From Christensenellaceae bacterium (GTDB taxonomy: Bacteria; Bacillota; Clostridia; Christensenellales; DTU072), in contig JAIRKT010000049.1 in assembly GCA_031259965.1 (NCBI GenBank), positions 1,991-65,990 of the forward strand: 64,000 nt of DNA, read 5' to 3'. A program made the position numbers and the translations under genes. Of this stretch, positions 2,393 to 47,924 are shown piece by piece (position 1 is the first letter of the stretch; each line of letters starts with the position of its first letter). The notes below the pieces were generated by a model. It did not search any database. It was not told the origin of the DNA and worked only from the letters and a program-made list of their open reading frames with translations.

Positions 2393-2890
2393 TCAAATTT
2401 TTGGAGGCATAACAAAAGGTGCGTTATTGTTGGTTATTGCACCGTTAATAGCATTCAAAGCATCTTTTAACCTTTGCTGTGTGTCGCCCAATAGCTCATT
2501 AACTTCAGCTCTAACTTCATTTAGTACTTTTGCTTTATGGTCAGCTGCCTGTTGTTTTATGATTTCAGCTTCGCGTTGAGCCTGATGAATTATGTTGTGC
2601 TCACTCAAAATCTGATCAGCGCGTTGCTGCGCCATCAGCACAATATTTGATGCCTTTTGAGTCTCCTCAGCAAGATTGTATTCAGGCACAATCGGTCTCA
2701 AAGATGGTGGTGGTACTGCTTTTTTGGAAACAACAGCTCTTTGTGGCGTTGTGGGATAAACTTCTCGAATTTTGTTAAGTATATTAACTATAACTTCAGC
2801 ATCGACTGTTACACCTGAACCAAAAAAACTTTTTTTGCCGTTATCGAGTTCTTCCTCAATTTGCAATAATAGATCTTCTATGTCTTCCAT
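2393..2890 (-). CDS. Conserved coiled-coil protein typically found downstream of coaD in Clostridia
   Basis: LLLQIEEELDNGKK..TVD..A.QRADQILSEH.I..QA..EA pattern; overlaps the upstream stop. Confidence 0.65.
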   Translation of the reverse strand: MEDIEDLLLQIEEELDNGKKSFFGSGVTVDAEVIVNILNKIREVYPTTPQRAVVSKKAVPPPSLRPIVPEYNLAEETQKASNIVLMAQQRADQILSEHNIIHQAQREAEIIKQQAADHKAKVLNEVRAEVNELLGDTQQRLKDALNAINGAITNNNAPFVMPPKI

Positions 2891-3900
2891 TTTTTATCCT
2901 CTGCAATAATTTCTTTTATAATAGACTTATCAATAAGGCCATCTACTCCCTCGCCAGCATTAATGCGATCCCTAACAAGTGAACTACTTATTTGGATATC
3001 TTTCGCTTTAATGAACAAGGTTGTTATGTCTCCATGTGTCTTATTATATTCGGCCATTTCCTCTTCATACTGTGATTCAGCAGGAGTACGTAGACCTCTA
3101 ACTAAATATTTTATACCATTTTGCTTACAATAGTCAACGACTAGACCCTCAAAATATGATATTTTAATCTTTTTTTTGTATTCTTTTAATGATTTCTCTA
3201 TAAAACGTAGTCTTTTTTGCACTCCATACCTTGGATTCTTATCAGGATTGATCAAAATCACTACATGGAGCATATCAAATTTTTCAAGTCCCTTTTCAAC
3301 TAAATATTTATGTCCTAATGTAAATGGATCAAATGAACCAGTTACTGCAGCCTTCGTTTCACGTTTAAGAATTGATATCGTGGTTCCACCATAATCGCGC
3401 ACAATCGAATCATTAAACTCAACTGGTAGCTTGTATGGCTTGTCATCTCTTTTTCTCTCTAAAACTATAATTCCACCTGCATTTAATATTTCTTTTTCCG
3501 CAATTAATGTTAACACTTCATTTTCAATTTTGCTTTCATATGGTGGATCTATGAAAATAATATCAAAAACAAAACCTCTTAAAGCCAATTCACTTATACA
3601 AGCTCTATAATCTTTGCTTATAATTTGGCTTTCAGAATTTATTTTTTCAAGATTTGATTTTATTACATTAACTGCTTCACGTGAATGGTCACAAAAAACA
3701 ACACTGCTAGCACCACGCGATAAGGATTCAATGCCTAGTGCACCACTGCCTGCAAACAGATCCAATACTACAGCATCCTCAACTTTGTTTCTTATTAGGT
3801 TAAACATAGCTTCCTTTACTCGATCTGTTGTTGGTCGCACATTTTGACCAGGAACTGCACTTAATTTTCGGCCTTTGTATTTGCCTGCAATTACTCTCAT
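2878..3900 (-). CDS. rsmD-coaD: Fusion of RsmD (16S rRNA m2G966 methyltransferase) and CoaD (phosphopantetheine adenylyltransferase)
   Basis: N-half RVIAGKYKGR, RPTTDRVKEA, DLFAGSGALG, DPPY; C-half GSFDPFTLGH, VRGLR, ISSSLVR; one uninterrupted frame. Confidence 0.92.
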   Translation of the reverse strand: MRVIAGKYKGRKLSAVPGQNVRPTTDRVKEAMFNLIRNKVEDAVVLDLFAGSGALGIESLSRGASSVVFCDHSREAVNVIKSNLEKINSESQIISKDYRACISELALRGFVFDIIFIDPPYESKIENEVLTLIAEKEILNAGGIIVLERKRDDKPYKLPVEFNDSIVRDYGGTTISILKRETKAAVTGSFDPFTLGHKYLVEKGLEKFDMLHVVILINPDKNPRYGVQKRLRFIEKSLKEYKKKIKISYFEGLVVDYCKQNGIKYLVRGLRTPAESQYEEEMAEYNKTHGDITTLFIKAKDIQISSSLVRDRINAGEGVDGLIDKSIIKEIIAEDKKWKT

Positions 3901-4476: not shown

Positions 4477-4902
4477 CTAAATCGGCAAGTCGCGTCCCAT
4501 CAGATTTATCCCATTACTTTCTAATATAGCTGCCGTTTTTTCATTATCGTCAACTTTGATTAGAATAATTGCATTCTCCTTGTTTGCCCCTGCAAATGAA
4601 TAGAGATAACCTATATTAATTTTTGCTTTTTCTAAGATGCTTAGCACTTTAAACATTTCGCCAGGTTTATCTGCAACATTAAAACCTATAAGATCAGTTG
4701 CGGATGCATTGAAACCATTAATTTTTAGTGTCTCAACCGCTCGCACATTATCGTCAGTTATTGCTCTTAAAATTCCGTATTCCTCAGTATCAGCAATTGA
4801 CATGGCCCTTATGTTTATATTAGCATCAGCTAATACTTTAGAAAACTCGGCAATTCTACCACTTCTGTTTTCCAAAAAAACCGCTATCTGATTTACTAAC
4901 AT
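4477..4902 (-). CDS. Tandem ACT-domain protein (usual paaK neighbour)
   Basis: QIAVFLENRSGR..NINIRAMSIADT..GILR; DKPG..INIGYLYSF. Confidence 0.9.
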   Translation of the reverse strand: MLVNQIAVFLENRSGRIAEFSKVLADANINIRAMSIADTEEYGILRAITDDNVRAVETLKINGFNASATDLIGFNVADKPGEMFKVLSILEKAKINIGYLYSFAGANKENAIILIKVDDNEKTAAILESNGINLMGRDLPI

Positions 4903-4927
4903 TTTAAATATTCCTTTTAATGCTCAT

Positions 4928-5048
4928 ACAAACCTACTTATAGATTTGTAGCTTTTTCCACTATCTTCCAAAAAACCGCGCTAGATAGCTTCCGACCTCT
5001 AGTGTTGGGCTTTGTGTCCTGTGGCGTAACTTTCGCTATGCAAGCGTA
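4928..5048 (-). ncRNA. Structured intergenic element, copy 1 (unassigned motif)
   Basis: Aligns with 6443-6566 and 8165-8286; stems CGCT/AGCG, CCAC/GTGG, CCAA/TTGG, CTAG/CTAG with C(GGAA)G loop, ACAAATCT/AGGTTTGT. Confidence 0.7.
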
Positions 5049-5114
5049 GTATTATTCTCAGGTTATTCAAAACCTTTTTCGCAATATGACAATCCACAAA
5101 CAAAACTATATATT

Positions 5115-6413
5115 TTATTTGCGCTTGTCAGTTACTCTTTGTGCTTTGCCCTCGCTTCGCTTTATACTAGCATATGAAACCAATTTAACCTGTGCAGAAA
5201 CACCAATGGCAGATCCTATAACTGTTTCGAGTTTTGATACCAGCGCTTCTATGTCCTTTACTTCATCAAATTTTGCATCTTGTTTTAATTCGATTGCTAT
5301 TTCCATAACATCTAAATTTTTAACTCTGTCTACCGTTATATGATAATGTGACGAGATTTTATCATCCGATCCGATCAATGCACTCTCAATTTGTGATGGA
5401 AAAACGTTTACACCTCGAATAATTAGCATGTCATCAGATCTGCCTTTTATCCTCTTTATTCTATAACCCGTGCGCTTACACGGACATGGAGAGTCATCTA
5501 AGGCTGTTATATCCCTCGTCCTATAACGAATGAGTGGCATTCCTTGCTTTGTTAGTGTTGTAAATACAAGCTCTCCACGTTCGCCTATTGGCAGTGGTTC
5601 TAATGTGTCTACATCAACAATTTCAGGATAAAAGTGATCATCCCAAATATGTGCACCTTTTTGGAATTCACATTCAGACGCAACACCTGGACCAGCTATT
5701 TCTGATAATCCATAGATGTCATAAGCTTTTAATCCTAGTTTATCCTCTATTTCGTTTCGCATTTCCTCAGACCACGGTTCAGCACCAAAGAGCCCCCATT
5801 TTAGATTTAAATCTTTTGCTGTGTATCCTGCTTTTATTATTTCATCTGCAAGATAAATAGCATATGAGGGTGTACAACAAATACCATCTGCCTTGAAATC
5901 AATTATTAATTGTATTTGTCTTGGCGTATTACCAGCAGAAACTGGCACTACTGTTAAGCCCAATCTCTCGCCGCCATAATGTAATCCCAACCCACCTGTG
6001 AACAATCCATAACCATAAGCCACATGCAAAAGCGAATTAGCATCAGCGCCTGCCGCAACTAAACTTCTAGCACAACACTCAGCCCATACTTCTATATCAT
6101 ATTTAGTGTATCCTACAACCGTGAGTTTTCCAGTTGTGCCAGAGGAGGCATGAACACGTATAATATCTTTTTTATCAGTCGAAAACATGCCAAATGGATA
6201 ATTATCTCTTAAATCCTGCTTTGTCGTAAATGGCAACTTTACAATGTCATCTATACTTTTTATGTCAGATGGTTTTATGTTAATTGCATCCATTTTTGCT
6301 CTGTACGCTGGCACACTGTCATAGACTCTTTTGACTAGATCTACTAAAAGCTCGGATTGTAATTTGTGCTTTTCTTTTTTTGTTAAGCATTCGTTCTTTT
6401 TGTCAAAAAACAA
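5115..6413 (-). CDS. paaK: Phenylacetate-CoA ligase family protein
   Basis: HASSGTTG, YGLFTGGLG, GAEPW, DIYGLSE, RYRTRD, GRSDDMLIIRGVN; start moved to TTG 6413 after SD AAGGAAGGA. Confidence 0.92.
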   Translation of the reverse strand: MFFDKKNECLTKKEKHKLQSELLVDLVKRVYDSVPAYRAKMDAINIKPSDIKSIDDIVKLPFTTKQDLRDNYPFGMFSTDKKDIIRVHASSGTTGKLTVVGYTKYDIEVWAECCARSLVAAGADANSLLHVAYGYGLFTGGLGLHYGGERLGLTVVPVSAGNTPRQIQLIIDFKADGICCTPSYAIYLADEIIKAGYTAKDLNLKWGLFGAEPWSEEMRNEIEDKLGLKAYDIYGLSEIAGPGVASECEFQKGAHIWDDHFYPEIVDVDTLEPLPIGERGELVFTTLTKQGMPLIRYRTRDITALDDSPCPCKRTGYRIKRIKGRSDDMLIIRGVNVFPSQIESALIGSDDKISSHYHITVDRVKNLDVMEIAIELKQDAKFDEVKDIEALVSKLETVIGSAIGVSAQVKLVSYASIKRSEGKAQRVTDKRK

Positions 6414-6442
6414 TTCTCTATCCTTCCTTCTGTTAATACAAA

Positions 6443-6566
6443 ACAAACCTACTCCCAGATTTGTAGCTTATCCCACCATCAACCACTCATCGCGCTCACC
6501 TGCTTTCGACATGCGAGTGTTGGTCTTCGTGTCCTGTGGTATTTAAACACGCTAAGCTAATGCGTA
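6443..6566 (-). ncRNA. Structured intergenic element, copy 2 (unassigned motif)
   Basis: Same blocks as copies 1 and 3: TACGC/GCGTG, CCAC/GTGG, GACCA/TGGTT, CTCG/TGAG with C(GAAA)G loop, ACAAATCT/AGGTTTGT. Confidence 0.7.
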
Positions 6567-6610
6567 TCCAGTTTTCATTACTACCCCCCTGTTATTTACA
6601 AATTTATCTG

Positions 6611-7186
6611 TTAATCAGCATCTAAAGGCTCATAACCATATTTTAATGCCCTCTTGTTAACATCTAAAAAGCGCGCAGGTGTTGATGATGACATTGCATC
6701 TTCCATCTCATCATAACTAATAGCACATTTCTTTGCAAACGCCCCTATCATTACAATATTGACAGCTTTTATGTTGCCAGCTTTTTCAGCAAGTGCGCCT
6801 GCATCTAACACAACAAGATTTTTACCACTGTCTCTAATTTTCTGTGGTATGTTTTCAGGATAATCTGCAGCACCCATTATCACTGGCATTGGCAGTATTT
6901 GTCCCTCATTCAATATTATCGTGCCATTCTGGCTTAGATAATGCATCCATCTAAATGCCTCTAACGTTTCGAAAGCAATAACATAATCTGCCTGGCCTTC
7001 TGTTATAACTGGGGAGGCTACATCTGAACCTATTCTAACATGTGTAACTACACTCCCTCCGCGTTGTGACATCCCGTGAACCTCACTTAATTTGCAATCT
7101 TTATTTTGATTCACAGCCCAAGCACCAAGCACTCTGCTCGCCAGTAATGTTCCCTGTCCCCCAACACCAACAATCAATATGTTCAT
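6611..7186 (-). CDS. iorB: Indolepyruvate:ferredoxin oxidoreductase beta subunit
   Basis: NILIVGVGGQG, SEVHGMSQRGGSV; start moved to ATG 7186. Confidence 0.9.
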   Translation of the reverse strand: MNILIVGVGGQGTLLASRVLGAWAVNQNKDCKLSEVHGMSQRGGSVVTHVRIGSDVASPVITEGQADYVIAFETLEAFRWMHYLSQNGTIILNEGQILPMPVIMGAADYPENIPQKIRDSGKNLVVLDAGALAEKAGNIKAVNIVMIGAFAKKCAISYDEMEDAMSSSTPARFLDVNKRALKYGYEPLDAD

Positions 7187-7199
7187 TAATAATAACTCC

Positions 7200-8147
7200 C
7201 TAGTTCCCCAAACAAAGAGCCGCCGCTCCCAATATACCAGCATCGTTTTTAAGTTCTGCTCTTACAATTTTTGTAGCAGGATTTCTTGTGCTACCATAAC
7301 TATCCCGATTAACATGTTTTATAATCTCATTTATGAAAAAATCACCCTCATTAGAAATACCACCACCTATAATCACTGCGTCTGGTCTAAATATATTAAC
7401 TAGATTGGTAATTCCACACGCGACGTCTTCAATATACTGATCTACAACATTAATGGCCTGAGCATCACATTTTTCTGCTGCTCTAAAAGCAGTACGTCCA
7501 GAAACTTTTCCCTCATCCTTTGCAATTTGTGACATTAAACTATCGGGATATTTTTTTATGGCTTTTGTGGTTTCTCTAATTAAAGCAGTTGCAGAGGCAT
7601 ATGCCTCCCAACATCCTTTTCGGCCACAGGTGCATTTCAACCCACCTTTTTTTATCACCATATGTCCGCCCTCACCACCTGCACCGCCTGCGCCAGAATG
7701 AATTTTTCGGTTTACTACGATTCCAGTACCAACGCCTGTGCCAAGTGTTATAAAAACTATATTCTTCATAGATTTAGCACATCCAAATACCATTTCGCCC
7801 AATGCTGCGCAATTTGCATCGTTTTCAACAGCACAACCTACAGCAAAGCGTTGGCTTATTCCAGCACCAATATCCACATGACTAACTTTAATATTATTTG
7901 AATATATAAGATGTCCTTCATATGGTTCAACAGTGCCAGGCACACCTACCCCTACCGATTTTAGTTGATCTCTACTTATTGGTGAATTATTTAACAGATC
8001 AGAAGTTAACTCAAAAAGACTATTCATAAGCCGCGATCGACTACCAGTTACAGTCTTTACTGTAACCTTTCTAATTATTTCACCTTGTTTTGAGACTATT
8101 CCACCTTTTAAGGACATCCCACCTATGTCAATTCCTATAGCGTACAT
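7200..8147 (-). CDS. ROK-family sugar kinase (glucokinase-like)
   Basis: GIDIGG, ENDANCAALGE, TLGTGVG, GEGGH, CTCGRKGCWEAY. Confidence 0.93.
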   Translation of the reverse strand: MYAIGIDIGGMSLKGGIVSKQGEIIRKVTVKTVTGSRSRLMNSLFELTSDLLNNSPISRDQLKSVGVGVPGTVEPYEGHLIYSNNIKVSHVDIGAGISQRFAVGCAVENDANCAALGEMVFGCAKSMKNIVFITLGTGVGTGIVVNRKIHSGAGGAGGEGGHMVIKKGGLKCTCGRKGCWEAYASATALIRETTKAIKKYPDSLMSQIAKDEGKVSGRTAFRAAEKCDAQAINVVDQYIEDVACGITNLVNIFRPDAVIIGGGISNEGDFFINEIIKHVNRDSYGSTRNPATKIVRAELKNDAGILGAAALCLGN

Positions 8148-8164
8148 TTAAAACCTTTATTATT

Positions 8165-8286
8165 ACAAACTACACTAACAGTTCGCAACTTTATTCCACT
8201 ATCCCACAAACCTCGCTCGTTCGCTTTCGACTATACGAGTGTTGGGTTTTATGTCCAGTGGCGTAACTTCCGATAAAGCAATCGTA
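8165..8286 (-). ncRNA. Structured intergenic element, copy 3 (unassigned motif)
   Basis: CGAT/ATCG, CCACT/AGTGG, CCCA/TGGG, CTCG/CGAG with C(GAAA)G loop, GCGAACT/AGTTTGT. Confidence 0.7.
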
Positions 8287-8331
8287 CCATTCACTAATTT
8301 AACCTGTTAAAACTCTAATCATCATAGAATT

Positions 8332-9327
8332 TCATACATTTGTCTCTATAAATGTAATCTTACCTTCTATTTTTGTTAGCAACCCAGGTCTAATAAAAAA
8401 GGTATCACCTTTCTTTATGAGTCCACCATTAACAAAATTTGCACATCCTTCTATAGCAGTTAATATAATAACTTTATTTAAATCAACTAGCGAATAGCAA
8501 GAATTAACAACAACCTCACTAACATCAAAGTAATCAGTATTTACTAATTCACGCTTTACATAATCATCATTTTCAAATAATGATTTTATCGTTGGTTGTG
8601 CTTCATAAGCCTCAGTGCAAATGACATCCAGTGCTTTATCAATATGCAAATCTCTTTGCATCCCAAGCGTGTCTTTTCGGCCATAATCATAGATTCTGTA
8701 CGTGAGATTGCTGCTCTCTTGAATTTCTACTATTACAGCTCCTGCTAAAAGGGCATGTACCGTGCCTGATGGTATGAAAAAAAAGTCACCTTTTTTTATT
8801 TTTATTTTTTTTAATAGCTCACAAAATCTGTTTTCTGCTATAGCCAAACGCAATTCGTCTGAAGTTTGCTTTTTGTTAAACCCTAAATAAATGTAGGCAT
8901 TGCTCTGAGCCTCGGCCACATACCACATTTCTGTTTTTCCTAAAGGACAATGTTCTACCTCTCTTGCGTATTCATCGCTAGGGTGCACTTGTATAGACAA
9001 ATCTGCACTTGCATCAATTATCTTAATTAATGCAGGGAACACTCCAAACATATCAGCTCTTTTTCCTAATATCCCTTTAAATTTAAGATTTAATTGATTT
9101 AATGTATTGCCTGCATAAATCCCAGCTTGTACACACGATTCATTACCCTCAAGACAGGAGAGCTCCCAACTTTCTGCTATTCGCTCATAACCGTTCGGAT
9201 CTTTGCCCCACTCACTCGCTAGAAGTGACCCTCCCCATATATAATCTTTTAAAACTGGTTTTAAAAGCAATGGTGTATTTGGCACAGATTCTTGTATATT
9301 AGTTGTTTCATCTGTTTTAAGACTCAT
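8332..9327 (-). CDS. manA: Type I mannose-6-phosphate isomerase
   Basis: DYIWGG, AESWE, DLSIQVHP, GKTEMWY, GTVHA, EIQESSNLTYRIYDY. Confidence 0.92.
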   Translation of the reverse strand: MSLKTDETTNIQESVPNTPLLLKPVLKDYIWGGSLLASEWGKDPNGYERIAESWELSCLEGNESCVQAGIYAGNTLNQLNLKFKGILGKRADMFGVFPALIKIIDASADLSIQVHPSDEYAREVEHCPLGKTEMWYVAEAQSNAYIYLGFNKKQTSDELRLAIAENRFCELLKKIKIKKGDFFFIPSGTVHALLAGAVIVEIQESSNLTYRIYDYGRKDTLGMQRDLHIDKALDVICTEAYEAQPTIKSLFENDDYVKRELVNTDYFDVSEVVVNSCYSLVDLNKVIILTAIEGCANFVNGGLIKKGDTFFIRPGLLTKIEGKITFIETNV

Positions 9328-11653: not shown

Positions 11654-13494
11654 GTTAACTCGTAAATTACTCCAAGCCCATCCTCAACTGTTACTATAAC
11701 AGTCTCTATGTAATAACCATCATCTGTTAAATATGTGTCTATCGTAGAAACCGAAGTACACTTATTCTCTATTAAAATTTCCCCACTATTTGCTTTAAGT
11801 CCATATTTCGTATTCTCTCCCTCTGTCGCATATGTTACATATACGCCATTGCGCAGTATATAAACGTCTTCAACTAATTCTTCATCACCATTTTTGTTGA
11901 TTCTATAAAATTTACGCACTGTGTCATTCGCACCACCTGTTATGCGCGATCCAGTGGCGTAACCACCAAAAAAAGGTGTTAATTCAAAATATATGTATGG
12001 AAGAGCTTTCTCACCATTCATATTATATGCACCTGCATAAACGTCTGTGCTATCGTAACCTCTTTGAATGAGATTGAACGAAATTATCATATCATCGTGT
12101 GCTATTGACGTGTTAAAACCTTCAGTATCCTTTACATCCTCTATAATTATGCGCTTTCCATAATATGTGTGATAATCAGCACTCATCGGGGTTAATCCAA
12201 AATTTGGATCACCATTGTATAAGCCGACACCATCAACAAATAAAAGTGGCATTATTGTAGCTAAATCCCTTCCGCGCGCGCTTGTATCATATATTGAATA
12301 GGTAATAGGCCAGGATTCCAACAAACCAAAATTTTGGTAGTAATAATAATAAACTATTGAATAACCATCCTTTACAGCACTACTCATAGGCACAACTGGC
12401 AAATAATATTTTCCTTTACCATCAAATTCATCTACGTCATATGATGAATTCAACAAATCTGTCATTGAACGCAGATAATTATCAGTGTACTTATTGGCCA
12501 CTAACGCAATTCTATCTTTTATTTCAAAGCTTTTATAACTCTTTGTTGTATATGACGCACTCTTAATTGTTATGTATTTGTATGTTCCACTTGAATCCTG
12601 CTCATACCAATCATACACACCAGTATTTGTAGTGGTAGTATATACTCCTGATATTATGAACCAATTATTGCCTATATAACTAGCTTCTGTATTAACTAAG
12701 GTTTCTGTATACCCCGCACTTAAATCAAACGGAGAAAAACTCCCCTTTAAAACAAAAGAGCCATCTTTTGAAATTTCATTTATCTTATAAAATCGTACTA
12801 TGTTTGTATAGGTAGAGAGTAGATTTCCATCAAAATATTTGAATGTGGTCTCGTTTACTACATCGGCTATAACACCAATTTCTAATAAGGTTACGCCCCC
12901 TGATGATACGTAGTCGTATACTGTAGCATAAGTGTATGTTATTGCTGAATCACCAGTTAAATATTTATGTCCCAATGTAACCAATAAAGTATCGTTTAAA
13001 AAGACGTACTGTGTTATGGCTGGTAAATATACACAAGAAAAACCATATTCCTTACCAGCATACTCGCCACGTATCTTAACGACACCAATATACACCTTGG
13101 TCTCACTAATATCACCAATAGCTACTCGTCTTGCAACTATTGCATAATCTCCATTTATATCTAGAACTGACTCATAACGTGGTTCAATTAAAATCCCTTC
13201 CTCTACAGACGCAAAACCATAGAGAGTGGTTTCAGTATTACCAAACGTCAACCCCTTTTCAGCCATTATATATATTCCAGAACTATAATGATAGGAAGTA
13301 AAAACTATCTCTCGCCCTTCAAAATTTTCGTAGTCTTTAAGATTTAGTGCAATGCTCGCATTACTATAACCATCATGTGATATGAAGTTTTTAAAATATG
13401 TGTCGAAAGCTTCAACATTGTTATTAGATGAACATCCTGTTAATATTGACAAAACAATCAGGATGCAAAATAGAATTAGGAATATTCTCTTCAT
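11650..13494 (-). CDS. Lipoprotein, beta-rich, with WG-repeat-like segments
   Basis: Lipobox LTGC; YGF...ILIEPRY and YGL..GEILIE segments. Confidence 0.65.
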   Translation of the reverse strand: MKRIFLILFCILIVLSILTGCSSNNNVEAFDTYFKNFISHDGYSNASIALNLKDYENFEGREIVFTSYHYSSGIYIMAEKGLTFGNTETTLYGFASVEEGILIEPRYESVLDINGDYAIVARRVAIGDISETKVYIGVVKIRGEYAGKEYGFSCVYLPAITQYVFLNDTLLVTLGHKYLTGDSAITYTYATVYDYVSSGGVTLLEIGVIADVVNETTFKYFDGNLLSTYTNIVRFYKINEISKDGSFVLKGSFSPFDLSAGYTETLVNTEASYIGNNWFIISGVYTTTTNTGVYDWYEQDSSGTYKYITIKSASYTTKSYKSFEIKDRIALVANKYTDNYLRSMTDLLNSSYDVDEFDGKGKYYLPVVPMSSAVKDGYSIVYYYYYQNFGLLESWPITYSIYDTSARGRDLATIMPLLFVDGVGLYNGDPNFGLTPMSADYHTYYGKRIIIEDVKDTEGFNTSIAHDDMIISFNLIQRGYDSTDVYAGAYNMNGEKALPYIYFELTPFFGGYATGSRITGGANDTVRKFYRINKNGDEELVEDVYILRNGVYVTYATEGENTKYGLKANSGEILIENKCTSVSTIDTYLTDDGYYIETVIVTVEDGLGVIYELT

Positions 13495-46382: not shown

Positions 46383-47924
46383 ATGTCGAAAAATATCAAA
46401 TTGTCGATAATTTTTCATATATTAGCATCTTGTTTATCTTTCACCTCTTTGGTGATAGGTATTGTTATTACTAATGTTGTTTTCATTGTTCTGTCTGCAT
46501 TGGTATGCGTATCTTTTATTTGCACGTCAATTTTTACGCTAAGAGAAAAATATAGTTCTGATCTGCCAATTCTTGAACAAGTGCGAAACTTTATTTCAGG
46601 TGGATATATAGAATTTTACATAGACGATAACCTAACAATTCGTTCACACACCCCTGGTTTAATTAGACATTTAGGATACAATGAAGCCACCTTTAAGAAA
46701 ACGATCAATGATAGTTTTTTAAATCTCGTTGTGCCAGAGGATCGTGAATTATTAATAACTCGCTTAAAAAGCAGTTCTAATATTCTAAAAACGCTGCAAC
46801 TAAGATTTCGAATCATTGCAGATCAACAGCGTATAATTCCTGTTGTTGCTCAACTTACATATTCATTAACAGCTCAGAAATTAATTAAACAAAACACTTT
46901 TTATAGACACATGTTAGTCAGGTGTTTAATCATAGATTTTACTTCTGTAAAAAACGAAGAAACTGAACGCACAATAGAGGCCGAACGATACAAAGTTGTA
47001 GTTGAACAATCAGATAGTATTATATTTGATTATAACATAAAAGATCGTGTATTGTTTATTAACAATGCTTTCGAGAAGAAATTCGGTTATAAAATAATGC
47101 CTGGTGTTGATCTTAGAAATGTTTTGTTGGGAGAAAACGCAATAACACACCGCGAGGACGCCGACAAATTAATTGCACTTATAACTTCAGACGAAGCCTC
47201 CCACGAATTAATCATACGCATCAAAAAATTTGATAGTTCCTATATTTGGTGCAAACTAACAGCTACTATTCTGTTTGGATCCGACTCAACCCCTCTGCGC
47301 CTTATAGGACGAATAATAGATATTGATATTTCATTTAGAGAAAAGGAGCTTCTTTTAGAAAGAACCTTGAGAGATCCTTTAACTGGTTTATATAACAAAC
47401 TAGCAACCGAAAATTTGATTAAAGAATCTTTAGATAATGCGCCAAAATTAGCTTTGTTTGCTTTTGTATTATTTGATTTAGACAATTTTAAACACATAAA
47501 TGATAATTTTGGCCACATATGTGGAGATAGAGTATTATCAAAAATTGCAACCGCAATGTCCTCCCTACTTAGATCGTCAGACATCATAGGCCGAATAGGT
47601 GGTGATGAATTTGTTGTATTGATTAGGGACTTACCAAACGAATTGCATGCAATAAAAAAAGTAGGGGCTATTCTCTCTTCAATTTCTAATGCATTTAATA
47701 TGAATGATGATGGATTCAGCGTCTCGGCTAGTGCTGGTATATCATTCTTTTCTTCACATGGGACAACTTATTTGGAACTATTTGAAAAAGCCGATACTTC
47801 TTTATATAAAGTTAAAAACGCTGGCAAAAATTCATACTCAGTTTATTCAGAACCCATTCCAAAAAAAGAAGTCTGGAAGAATCATCCCAAAACAGGGTTG
47901 GATAAAACGGGAGTTGTAAAATGA
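46383..47924 (+). CDS. Membrane PAS-PAS-GGDEF diguanylate cyclase
   Basis: 2 TM helices, PAS-like segments, DPLTGLYN, DLDNFKHIND, RSSD I-site, intact GGDEF. Confidence 0.92.
   Translation: MSKNIKLSIIFHILASCLSFTSLVIGIVITNVVFIVLSALVCVSFICTSIFTLREKYSSDLPILEQVRNFISGGYIEFYIDDNLTIRSHTPGLIRHLGYNEATFKKTINDSFLNLVVPEDRELLITRLKSSSNILKTLQLRFRIIADQQRIIPVVAQLTYSLTAQKLIKQNTFYRHMLVRCLIIDFTSVKNEETERTIEAERYKVVVEQSDSIIFDYNIKDRVLFINNAFEKKFGYKIMPGVDLRNVLLGENAITHREDADKLIALITSDEASHELIIRIKKFDSSYIWCKLTATILFGSDSTPLRLIGRIIDIDISFREKELLLERTLRDPLTGLYNKLATENLIKESLDNAPKLALFAFVLFDLDNFKHINDNFGHICGDRVLSKIATAMSSLLRSSDIIGRIGGDEFVVLIRDLPNELHAIKKVGAILSSISNAFNMNDDGFSVSASAGISFFSSHGTTYLELFEKADTSLYKVKNAGKNSYSVYSEPIPKKEVWKNHPKTGLDKTGVVK

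What the first reader, a model, noticed from the sequence alone, without database searches (positions are those of the whole stretch)
4928..8286. Unassigned ~120-nt structured RNA-like motif in three copies, with compensatory base changes
Seen in sequence, read on the minus strand. R1 (5048-4928): UACGCUUGCAUAGCG-AAAGUUACG-CCAC-AGGACACAAAG-CCCAA-CA-CUAG-AG-GUCGGAAGC-UAU-CUAG-CGCGGUUUU-UUGG-AAGAUA-GUGG-AAAAAGCU-ACAAAUCU-AUAAGU-AGGUUUGU. R2 (6566-6443) and R3 (8286-8165) keep the same blocks: UACG, CCACWGGACAY, CCAACACU, GUCGRAAGC, AGCG, GAURGUGG and GUUUGU. The copies have diverged but the pairings are kept. 5' hairpin: CGC/GCG (R1, R2) versus CGAU/AUCG (R3). Inner stem: CUAG/CUAG, CUCG/UGAG, CUCG/CGAG. 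Middle stem: ACCA/UGGU (R2) versus CCCA/UGGG (R3). The apical loop stays GNRA (GGAA or GAAA). The 3' hairpin uses G-U pairs only when read on the minus (mRNA) strand. The invariant GAC could pair with the invariant GUC as a pseudoknot. Inference: selection acts on RNA structure. I cannot match it to any riboswitch, T-box or ribozyme consensus I know, so it is a candidate new ncRNA class.
Basis: partly seen in the sequence, partly recalled or inferred. Interest (0 to 1): 0.85.

Follow-up and report, generated by a model that had tools for sequence, protein, structure and literature searches.

The report
New multi-copy structured leader RNA family
The three repeats belong to an undescribed family of about 135-base folded RNA leaders (kink-turn plus pseudoknot) that sit just upstream of many unrelated genes in one gut-bacterial genus and probably act on the gene that follows, by a signal still unknown.

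Summary
Three copies lie on the minus strand at 4917-5052, 6433-6570 and 8154-8290, just upstream of the ACT-domain, PaaK and ROK-kinase genes. They belong to a family with 13 copies in this genome, 7 in a sister species and 6 divergent copies in a third.

Covariation is strong: 90% of cells are paired, 28 of 34 pairs change on both sides, and 0 of 500 shuffles reach this.

- a 5' hairpin whose loop pairs with the tail after P1 (pseudoknot);
- P1, then a consensus k-turn, then P2;
- a CAA/A internal loop and a variable P3 capped by CGRAA;
- a 3' hairpin ending shortly before the ribosome-binding site.

No Rfam 15 family matches. The motif was found only in genus g1, not in 78 other family genomes, 150 order genomes, or in pattern scans of 185,579 species, JGI metagenomes and IMG/VR.

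Downstream genes are very diverse. No terminator or Shine-Dalgarno sequestration was found. My best reading is a cis-acting post-transcriptional leader that docks a trans-acting factor. A riboswitch, a processing or ribozyme module, and a selfish repeat remain open.

The parts
4917..5052 (-). Copy R1, upstream of the ACT-domain gene (start codon at 4902).
   Evidence: CM R1 131.1 bits, CM R2 126.5 bits.
6433..6570 (-). Copy R2, upstream of PaaK (likely TTG start at 6413).
   Evidence: CM 104.1 and 101.5 bits. Start codon and from the G001 orthologue's N-terminus.
8154..8290 (-). Copy R3, upstream of the ROK kinase (start codon at 8147).
   Evidence: CM 121.7 and 114.3 bits.
6550..6564 (-). R2 hairpin P0 (CGC/GCG). 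Its loop, AGCUUA at 6553-6558, is the 5' strand of the pseudoknot.
   Evidence: Coordinates. P0 has 98% of cells paired, and 2 of 3 pairs change on both sides.
6465..6470 (-). R2 pseudoknot 3' strand (UAAGCU), directly after P1 and abutting P4.
   Evidence: This helix was not part of the CM. It has 77% of cells paired, and 5 of 6 pairs change on both sides. Coordinates.
5017..5024 (-). R1: P1 5' strand CCAC, plus the non-bulged k-turn strand A-G-G-A.
   Evidence: A is present in 19 of 19 copies and G in 18 of 19.
4958..4969 (-). R1: the bulged k-turn strand (loop, then G-A-U-A), plus the P1 3' strand GUGG.
   Evidence: G-A is invariant in 19 of 19 copies and in 27 of 27 by eye. P1 covaries.
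4970..5016 (-). R1 distal arm: P2 (CACAAAGCC/GGUUUUUU), the internal loop CAA/C, and P3 with the pentaloop CGGAA at 4990-4994.
4928..4949 (-). R1 3' hairpin P4 (ACAAAUCU.../...AGGUUUGU). It has no U tract after it.
   Evidence: 95.6% of cells paired, and 7 of 9 pairs change on both sides. No terminator-like site was found on the minus strand.
4477..4902 (-). ACT-domain-pair protein, 141 aa.
   Evidence: Pfam ACT_8, 1.2e-25.
5115..6413 (-). Phenylacetate-CoA ligase-like protein (PaaK).
   Evidence: Pfam AMP-binding_C_2 and AMP-binding. Orthologues in 39 of 41 family genomes.
6611..7186 (-). POR-gamma/IorB-like subunit. It has no motif of its own and follows the ROK gene directly.
   Evidence: Pfam POR, 1.7e-38. 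The ATG at 7186 was read.
7200..8147 (-). ROK-family kinase-like protein, 315 aa.
   Evidence: Pfam ROK, 2.3e-70.

Best explanation
What is shown. The three repeats are members of a genus-restricted family of cis-acting structured leader RNAs of about 135 nt, transcribed in the sense of the gene that follows.

The fold, from 5' to 3', is:
- hairpin P0, whose loop pairs with the tail after P1 to form a pseudoknot;
- a conserved linker, RAAGUUAYG;
- P1;
- a consensus k-turn (W-G-G-A opposite a 3-nt loop followed by G-A);
- P2;
- a small asymmetric loop, CAA opposite A or C;
- a P3 of variable length capped by CGRAA;
- hairpin P4.

The model match ends 6-22 nt before the start codon in 19 of 20 copies.

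What is inferred. The element acts after transcription on the cistron directly downstream, through translation initiation and/or mRNA processing or stability. It does so as a compact docking platform for a trans-acting factor. That factor is more probably a protein or RNP that serves a broad regulon than a specific metabolite. The k-turn would bend the distal arm back toward P0, the linker and the pseudoknot. The resulting folded body sits inside the upstream footprint of a ribosome that is initiating translation.
For: The family is real and transcribed-strand specific.
- G000 has 13 copies. With model R2, G001 has 7 and G002 has 6 divergent copies; three of those six are at E 0.2-0.6 genome-wide, but all six score E 0.03 or better in the locus search.
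- Every copy faces a downstream ORF.
- Covariation: 90% of cells paired, 28 of 34 pairs changed on both sides, 0 of 500 shuffles as high, and slid controls at 29-43%. For the core over 27 copies: 92.6% paired, 9 of 11 pairs changed on both sides, 0 of 500 shuffles.
- The k-turn consensus is met.

Copies are old and maintained.
- Pairwise identity is 0.55-0.76, and the beta-galactosidase and ADH-like orthologous copies are each other's best match.

There is no classic switch.
- No terminator-like site lies on the minus strand.
- The Shine-Dalgarno-to-AUG region is on average 36-76% unpaired in 18 folded copies, with no recurrent pairing to the motif.

The regulon is very mixed.
- G000 and G001: ACT protein, PaaK, ROK kinase, Zn-ADH-like protein, GH2 beta-galactosidase, PAP2, 2-oxoacid:ferredoxin oxidoreductase alpha subunit, a 2298-aa surface protein, glycogen phosphorylase, a trigger-factor-like protein, an NMT1-like lipoprotein, GH3, CdsA and PheA.
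- G002: V-ATPase A by Pfam. The G002 copies I read as HPr kinase and signal peptidase are named from their N-terminal sequences only, without a family search.

Several cistrons of one operon each carry a copy: three in the window, and two about 1 kb apart in G002.

The part shared by all three species is P0, the linker, P1 and the k-turn. The distal arm differs in G002 and in one degenerate G001 copy. This fits recognition of a scaffold better than a conserved ligand pocket in the distal arm.
Against: - No partner is identified.
- An L7Ae-type k-turn binder was not found in G000 (89% complete), and the family is not special to the genus.
- Invariant unpaired nucleotides, a pseudoknot and a k-turn are also what riboswitch aptamers look like.
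- Translation-level riboswitches can work without an obvious alternative helix.
- No RNA data exist for this organism, so transcript ends, processing and expression are all unknown.
- Folding energies are not exceptional.
- Copies upstream of PaaK and ACT are absent from the two sister species, so turnover is fast. This also fits a selfish element.
Confidence: 0.45

Rival explanations
1. It is a new riboswitch class that senses a global signal such as a second messenger, an ion or an energy or redox metabolite, and controls translation of each downstream cistron.
For: - The fold is complex and covarying, with a pseudoknot, a k-turn and invariant unpaired nucleotides in the linker, the CAA/A loop and the pentaloop.
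- It always sits in a 5' UTR, close to the ribosome-binding site.
- Many copies per genome, and several per operon, recall c-di-GMP or PyrR-type regulons.
- GGDEF proteins are present.
Against: - It was found only in one genus.
- The downstream genes share no pathway.
- No terminator and no Shine-Dalgarno sequestration were found.
- The most conserved distal nucleotides, CCAACAC and CGRAA, are replaced in the G002 copies.
- c-di-GMP already has three canonical class-I riboswitches in this genome, and none is at a motif copy.
Confidence: 0.2
2. It is a self-cleaving ribozyme, or a dedicated RNase target, that cuts polycistronic transcripts upstream of each cistron. Every mRNA would then carry the same structured 5' end, a natural counterpart of synthetic ribozyme-plus-hairpin insulators.
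For: - Copies sit between consecutive cistrons without terminators, and I could not place a consistent promoter upstream of them.
- A hairpin, P4, precedes an open ribosome-binding site.
- Gene contexts are diverse, as for small ribozymes.
- CUACG at the 5' edge is conserved in all three species.
Against: - No known ribozyme model matches.
- The distal conserved nucleotides are not kept in G002, so any catalytic core would have to lie in P0, the linker, P1 and the k-turn.
- Known small ribozymes are phylogenetically scattered, not confined to one genus.
- There are no end-mapping data.
Confidence: 0.12
3. It is a selfish or formerly mobile intergenic repeat, in the manner of pneumococcal BOX elements or MITEs. 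Its RNA folds, but it has no regulatory role for the host.
For: - It is restricted to one genus, and copy number differs between species (13, 7 and 6).
- R1 and R2 have no counterpart in the orthologous intergenic regions of G001 and G002.
- The distal arm shows modular variation.
Against: - No two copies are more than 76% identical.
- Five gene contexts are shared by G000 and G001: beta-galactosidase, ROK kinase, ADH-like, trigger-factor-like and the surface protein. A degenerate G001 copy also precedes glycogen phosphorylase.
- Helices are kept by compensatory changes.
- All copies have the same orientation and nearly the same distance to a start codon.
- No terminal inverted repeats were seen by eye; I ran no formal test.
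- No TnpB-type gene was found in G000.
Confidence: 0.08
4. It is a strongly diverged member of a known family, for example a k-turn-bearing riboswitch such as c-di-GMP-II, SAM-I, cobalamin or T-box, that Rfam models fail to reach.
For: It shares generic features with these families: a k-turn and a pseudoknot. Short strings resemble conserved strings that I recall from c-di-GMP-I and from the B12 box (GCCACUG). That comparison is from memory only.
Against: - No such family appears even at E up to 10, with permissive filters, on 20 loci or on the region.
- RF01051 finds its own three loci in the genome and none of the motif copies.
- The regulon does not fit SAM, B12 or tRNA sensing.
Confidence: 0.05

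Closest known systems
c-di-GMP-II riboswitch (Rfam RF01786)
   Same: A 5'-UTR RNA of Clostridia. As I recall, it combines a k-turn with a pseudoknot, occurs in several copies per genome and precedes diverse genes.
   Different: There is no model match at E up to 10. The helix order and conserved nucleotides differ, no expression platform was found, and the motif is restricted to one genus.
SAM-I riboswitch (k-turn in P2 that enables a loop-to-junction pseudoknot)
   Same: The architectural logic is the same: a k-turn bends an arm so that a hairpin loop can form a long-range pseudoknot. This comparison is recalled, not tested.
   Different: There is no four-way junction, no Rfam match, no terminator, and the regulon is unrelated to sulfur or methionine.
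PyrR-binding attenuators of the pyr operon (Rfam RF00515)
   Same: Three copies of one RNA element lie upstream of successive cistrons of a single operon and are read by one trans-acting protein. This is recalled knowledge.
   Different: PyrR sites are simple hairpins coupled to terminator/antiterminator pairs and serve one pathway. Here the fold is complex, no terminator is present and the genes are unrelated.
Lineage-specific intergenic repeats with RNA structure (pneumococcal BOX, Correia and similar elements)
   Same: Restricted to a genus or species, many copies in intergenic regions, and modular variation.
   Different: Copies here are old, at 55-76% identity. They are kept by compensatory changes and are placed uniformly upstream of start codons in one orientation.
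Kt-7-type simple k-turn
   Same: The sequence consensus is met: a C-stem closed by C-G and A-U, a loop that is mostly 3 nt, tandem G-A/A-G, a 3b-3n position of U or A opposite G, and then the NC stem.
   Different: This is only a module of the motif, not its identity. The kink itself and any protein binding are untested.

Membership tests
Any Rfam 15 family (4227 models, including riboswitches, ribozymes, T-box and leaders) | A covariance-model match at or near the gathering score. | tested here: not met
   0 matches at gathering score in the 64-kb window. At E up to 10, 3 weak hits in 4700-8500 and 5 in 20 loci; none overlaps a motif copy.
k-turn (structural module) | A 3-nt bulge followed by tandem sheared G-A/A-G, flanked by a Watson-Crick C-stem and an NC-stem. 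| tested here: met
   Tested at sequence level only. G105 and A106 in 19 of 19 copies, A44 in 19 of 19, G43 in 18 of 19, C45-G100 in 16 of 19, A46-U99 in 19 of 19. The loop is exactly 3 nt in 15 of 19 copies. The flanking pairs covary.
Riboswitch (as a kind) | A conserved, covarying aptamer in a 5' UTR. | tested here: met
Riboswitch (as a kind) | An expression platform: an intrinsic terminator, or an alternative helix that sequesters the Shine-Dalgarno sequence. | tested here: not met
   No terminator-like site on the minus strand. P4 has no U tract. No recurrent Shine-Dalgarno pairing in 18 folded copies.
Riboswitch (as a kind) | A regulon that points to one ligand. | tested here: not met
   Downstream genes span sugar, amino-acid, lipid, energy and envelope functions.
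Riboswitch (as a kind) | Direct ligand binding. | not testable with these tools
   This needs in-line probing, ITC or a similar assay.
Small self-cleaving ribozymes | A match to a known class, or demonstrated site-specific cleavage. | tested here: inconclusive
   No known class matches. Cleavage cannot be tested here, and no RNA run is listed.
MITE or BOX-like mobile repeat | Near-identical recent copies, terminal inverted repeats, and random orientation with respect to genes. | tested here: not met
   Maximum pairwise identity is 0.76. All 27 copies are co-oriented with a downstream ORF. No terminal inverted repeats were seen by eye; no formal test was run.
TnpB/IS605 guide-RNA scaffold | A TnpB-type gene in the genome. 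| tested here: not met
   PF07282 was not found in G000, which is 89% complete.
c-di-GMP-I riboswitch | A match to RF01051. | tested here: not met
   Three canonical matches elsewhere in G000, at 54-65 bits. None lies at a motif copy, even at E up to 10.

The most novel reading that the evidence does not exclude
The motif is a new class of ligand-sensing RNA (a riboswitch for a global signal) or of self-processing RNA, used as a portable per-cistron controller upstream of at least 13 unrelated genes. It evolved within a single gut-bacterial genus. It may work together with the trigger-factor-like paralogues that are expanded in the same two species; one of those paralogues carries a copy of the motif in both G000 and G001.
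Probability: 0.25. Interest if true: 0.85.

Novelty: new variant of a known kind. Interest (0 to 1): 0.6.

Why it matters
The motif has strong comparative support, no relative in Rfam and an unusual population structure. It has many copies per genome, including several inside one operon, yet it was found in only one genus, and its distal arm changes between sister species.

If a protein reads it, it defines a lineage-specific post-transcriptional regulon in an uncultured gut Clostridia lineage. If a small molecule reads it, or if it cleaves itself, it is a new riboswitch or ribozyme class.

Either way it is a natural example of a portable RNA module placed directly upstream of ribosome-binding sites. 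That makes it relevant to how new RNA regulons arise and spread, and possibly useful as a part for synthetic biology.

Tried and rejected
**Known families.** Rfam at gathering score and at E up to 10 gave nothing on the motif. RF01051 finds three other loci only.

**TnpB guide-RNA scaffold.** PF07282 was not found in G000.

**A genus-specific k-turn-binding protein.** PF01248 was not found in G000. It has 1-2 matches in G001 and G002 and in 16 of the 22 other genomes searched (18 of 25 with a match in all), so it does not discriminate.

**A link to c-di-GMP.** GGDEF is present in g1 but also in genera without the motif, in 19 of 41 genomes in all.

**DNA-level operator at P4.** Rejected, because wobble pairs exist on the sense strand only.

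Not supported.

**Wider homologues.**
- CM R1 on 61 relatives.
- CM R2 on 151 genomes of the order.
- The 5'-core pattern on 81 family genomes gave 4 single hits outside g1, against 5 control hits. None of the 4 passes the CM.
- The strict pattern on genome contigs gave 15 stretches, of which 1 is real.
- On metagenome contigs it gave 70 stretches, of which 0 pass.
- On viral contigs the two patterns gave 8 stretches, of which 0 pass.
- The pattern scans need exact matches at 20 or more positions, so they miss diverged copies. Over 40 genomes, the CM searches ran with stricter filters.

**PaaK loci.** CM R1 on the PaaK loci of 29 genomes gave only one weak chance-level hit, at 18.5 bits and E 0.12.

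**Expression data.** No RNA holder is listed. The one run that holds the stretch is DNA, is labelled termite gut metagenome, and may be the source of the assembly.

**Promoters.** The promoter scan was uninformative: 29 sites against 20 +/- 4 expected. By eye, -10-like hexamers lie 5-15 nt upstream of most copies, but the intergenic DNA is AT-rich, so I draw no conclusion.

**Literature.** Two full-text searches listed no paper on such a motif. I saw only titles and the starts of abstracts and read no paper. Supplements were closed, and lists of candidate motifs in them could bear on novelty.

**Rows dropped.**
- L020 (ORF 133 nt away) and L023 were left out of the Shine-Dalgarno folding.
- L023 was left out of A6.
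- Two weak extra hits (19.2 and 14.2 bits) were not examined.

Full report
**Observation.** On the minus strand the window holds three copies of one element. The core pattern matches at 5001-5024, 6516-6539 and 8238-8261, against 0.03 matches expected, and 0 of 100 shuffles gave three. The copies align over about 135 nt. Each lies just upstream of a gene on the same strand: the ACT-domain-pair protein, a PaaK-like ligase, and a ROK kinase that is followed by an IorB-like subunit. Single-sequence folding energies are unremarkable on either strand, so thermodynamics alone would not flag the element.

**Family.**
- A search of the window's own genome G000 (2.24 Mb, 127 contigs, 89% complete) with the core pattern gave 8 sites and 0 control sites.
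- A covariance model built from those 8 found 13 copies, at 52-131 bits.
- Among 60 relatives, only the two other genomes of genus g1 matched.
- A second model, built from 19 copies, gave 13 copies in G000, 7 in G001 and 6 in G002, and none in two neighbouring genera.
- The G002 copies score low, at 22-48 bits. They keep CUACG, P0, the linker RAAGUUAYG, P1 and the k-turn. P1 is changed in a compensatory way (CCCG/CGGG, CCUG/CAGG, CCCA/UGGG), and the distal arm is different.

**Structure.** On the model-guided alignment of 19 copies, the structure I propose has 90% of cells paired. 28 of 34 pairs change on both sides, no shuffle in 500 reaches the observed values, and slid controls give 29-43%.
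- This alignment was fitted to the model, which favours the nested helices. The pseudoknot was not in the model.
- The pseudoknot joins the P0 loop to the six bases after P1-AA. It still shows 77% pairing, and 5 of 6 pairs change on both sides. By eye, examples are UCG/CGA, UGCU/AGCA, GU/AC and AC/GU variants.
- The internal loop between P1 and P2 fits the simple k-turn consensus.
- Over all 27 copies from three species, P0, P1 and the k-turn C-stem have 92.6% of cells paired, 9 of 11 pairs change on both sides, and 0 of 500 shuffles do as well.
- 56 of 631 paired cells are G-U or U-G (my count). This places the RNA on the gene-sense strand.
The proposed GAC/GUC pairing conflicts with the covariation of the P3 tip.

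**Position and context.**
- The model match ends 6-22 nt before the start codon in 19 of 20 copies; the exception is at 133 nt. The G002 copies behave alike.
- Downstream genes have no common theme.
- Several copies can serve one operon: three in the window, and two about 1 kb apart in G002.
- P4 is not followed by a U tract, and no terminator-like site was found on the minus strand.
- Folding 18 copies together with their ribosome-binding sites showed no recurrent sequestration.

**Evolution.**
- Copies are 55-76% identical. The beta-galactosidase and ADH-like orthologous copies of G000 and G001 are each other's best match, and the ROK and trigger-factor-like pairs rank among each other's top matches.
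- PaaK orthologues occur in 39 of 41 family genomes. However, the orthologous intergenic regions upstream of PaaK and ACT in G001 (162 and 170 nt) and in G002 (133 and 74 nt) hold no copy.
- The set of genes served therefore changes between species, while the fold is kept.

**Distribution.** The motif was not found in any of the following searches:
- 78 other genomes of the family, where the 5'-core pattern stayed at control level and none of its hits passed the model;
- 150 other genomes of the order;
- a strict pattern scan of one genome for each of 185,579 species, where 15 stretches matched and the single real one equals a G001 copy;
- JGI metagenome contigs, with 70 stretches and 0 real;
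- IMG/VR, with 8 stretches and 0 real.

The exact-pattern scans are insensitive to diverged copies, so this means 'not found', not 'absent'.

**Known families.** No Rfam 15 model reaches the motif. The genome has three ordinary c-di-GMP-I riboswitches elsewhere. No TnpB-type gene was found. L7Ae-type and GGDEF proteins do not track the motif. Two literature searches listed nothing comparable, from titles and abstract starts only.

**Interpretation.** That this is a real, selected, sense-strand RNA fold is well supported. What it does is inferred. Five features favour a post-transcriptional leader read by a trans-acting factor, most simply a protein with a broad regulon (confidence 0.45 for the whole statement):
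- its position inside the upstream ribosome footprint;
- one copy per cistron;
- the absence of a terminator or sequestering helix;
- the unrelated genes it precedes;
- the fact that the scaffold (P0, linker, P1, k-turn) is more conserved across species than the distal arm.

The alternatives remain open, because no transcript or biochemical data exist: a riboswitch for a global signal (0.20), a self-cleaving or RNase-processing module (0.12), a selfish repeat (0.08), and a diverged known family (0.05).

**One lead.** Trigger-factor-like paralogues of 545-590 aa are expanded in G000 (3 matches) and G001 (5). The other genomes show only a short N-terminal match in a single gene. One paralogue carries the motif in both species. 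I did not test whether this is more than coincidence.

Noticed in passing
G000 C68:896-2533 (-), C30:3278-6299; G001 C46, C19, C30: Trigger-factor-like paralogues of 545-590 aa are expanded in G000 (3 matches) and G001 (5). Of the other 39 genomes searched, 17 show one short N-terminal match and 22 show none. The G000 and G001 orthologues are only 30% identical, and one paralogue carries the RNA motif in both species.
   Followed up: partly
G000 C30:26091-26173, C76:23862-23946, C36:8149-8223; window about 47370-47831: The genome holds three canonical c-di-GMP-I riboswitches, at 54-65 bits. A GGDEF-domain gene lies inside the window, at G000:C6:49360-49821.
   Followed up: partly
window 2878-3900 (-): One 340-aa ORF combines an RsmD-like methyltransferase domain (Cons_hypoth95) with a CoaD-like cytidylyltransferase domain. 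This looks like a fusion of two genes that are usually neighbours.
   Followed up: no
window 6611-8147 (-); L116, L115: The IorB-like subunit follows a ROK kinase directly, with no IorA-like gene beside it in the window. ORFs of the same sizes and order (ROK, IorB, PaaK, ACT) are seen in G001 and G002, judged by ORF length only. A second PaaK paralogue lies elsewhere, at G000 C115.
   Followed up: no
L047, L050, L053, L056-L058 and about 20 more metagenome loci: About 27 of the 70 metagenome pattern hits have a match span of exactly 71 nt, several of them on contigs labelled human gut. None is the motif, so some other conserved sequence happens to fit the pattern.
   Followed up: no
L017, 40 nt upstream of the glycogen-phosphorylase copy (G000 C98, about 11790-11840): A GC-rich hairpin (GAGGCAAAGAC...GUCUUUGCCUC) lies directly upstream of this copy. 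It leaves no room for a promoter between the hairpin and the motif.
   Followed up: no
L155 (G001 C61:43215-43321): A shortened copy lies upstream of the G001 glycogen phosphorylase. It keeps P0, the linker, P1 and the k-turn, but it has a different short distal arm and lacks the pseudoknot tail and P4.
   Followed up: partly
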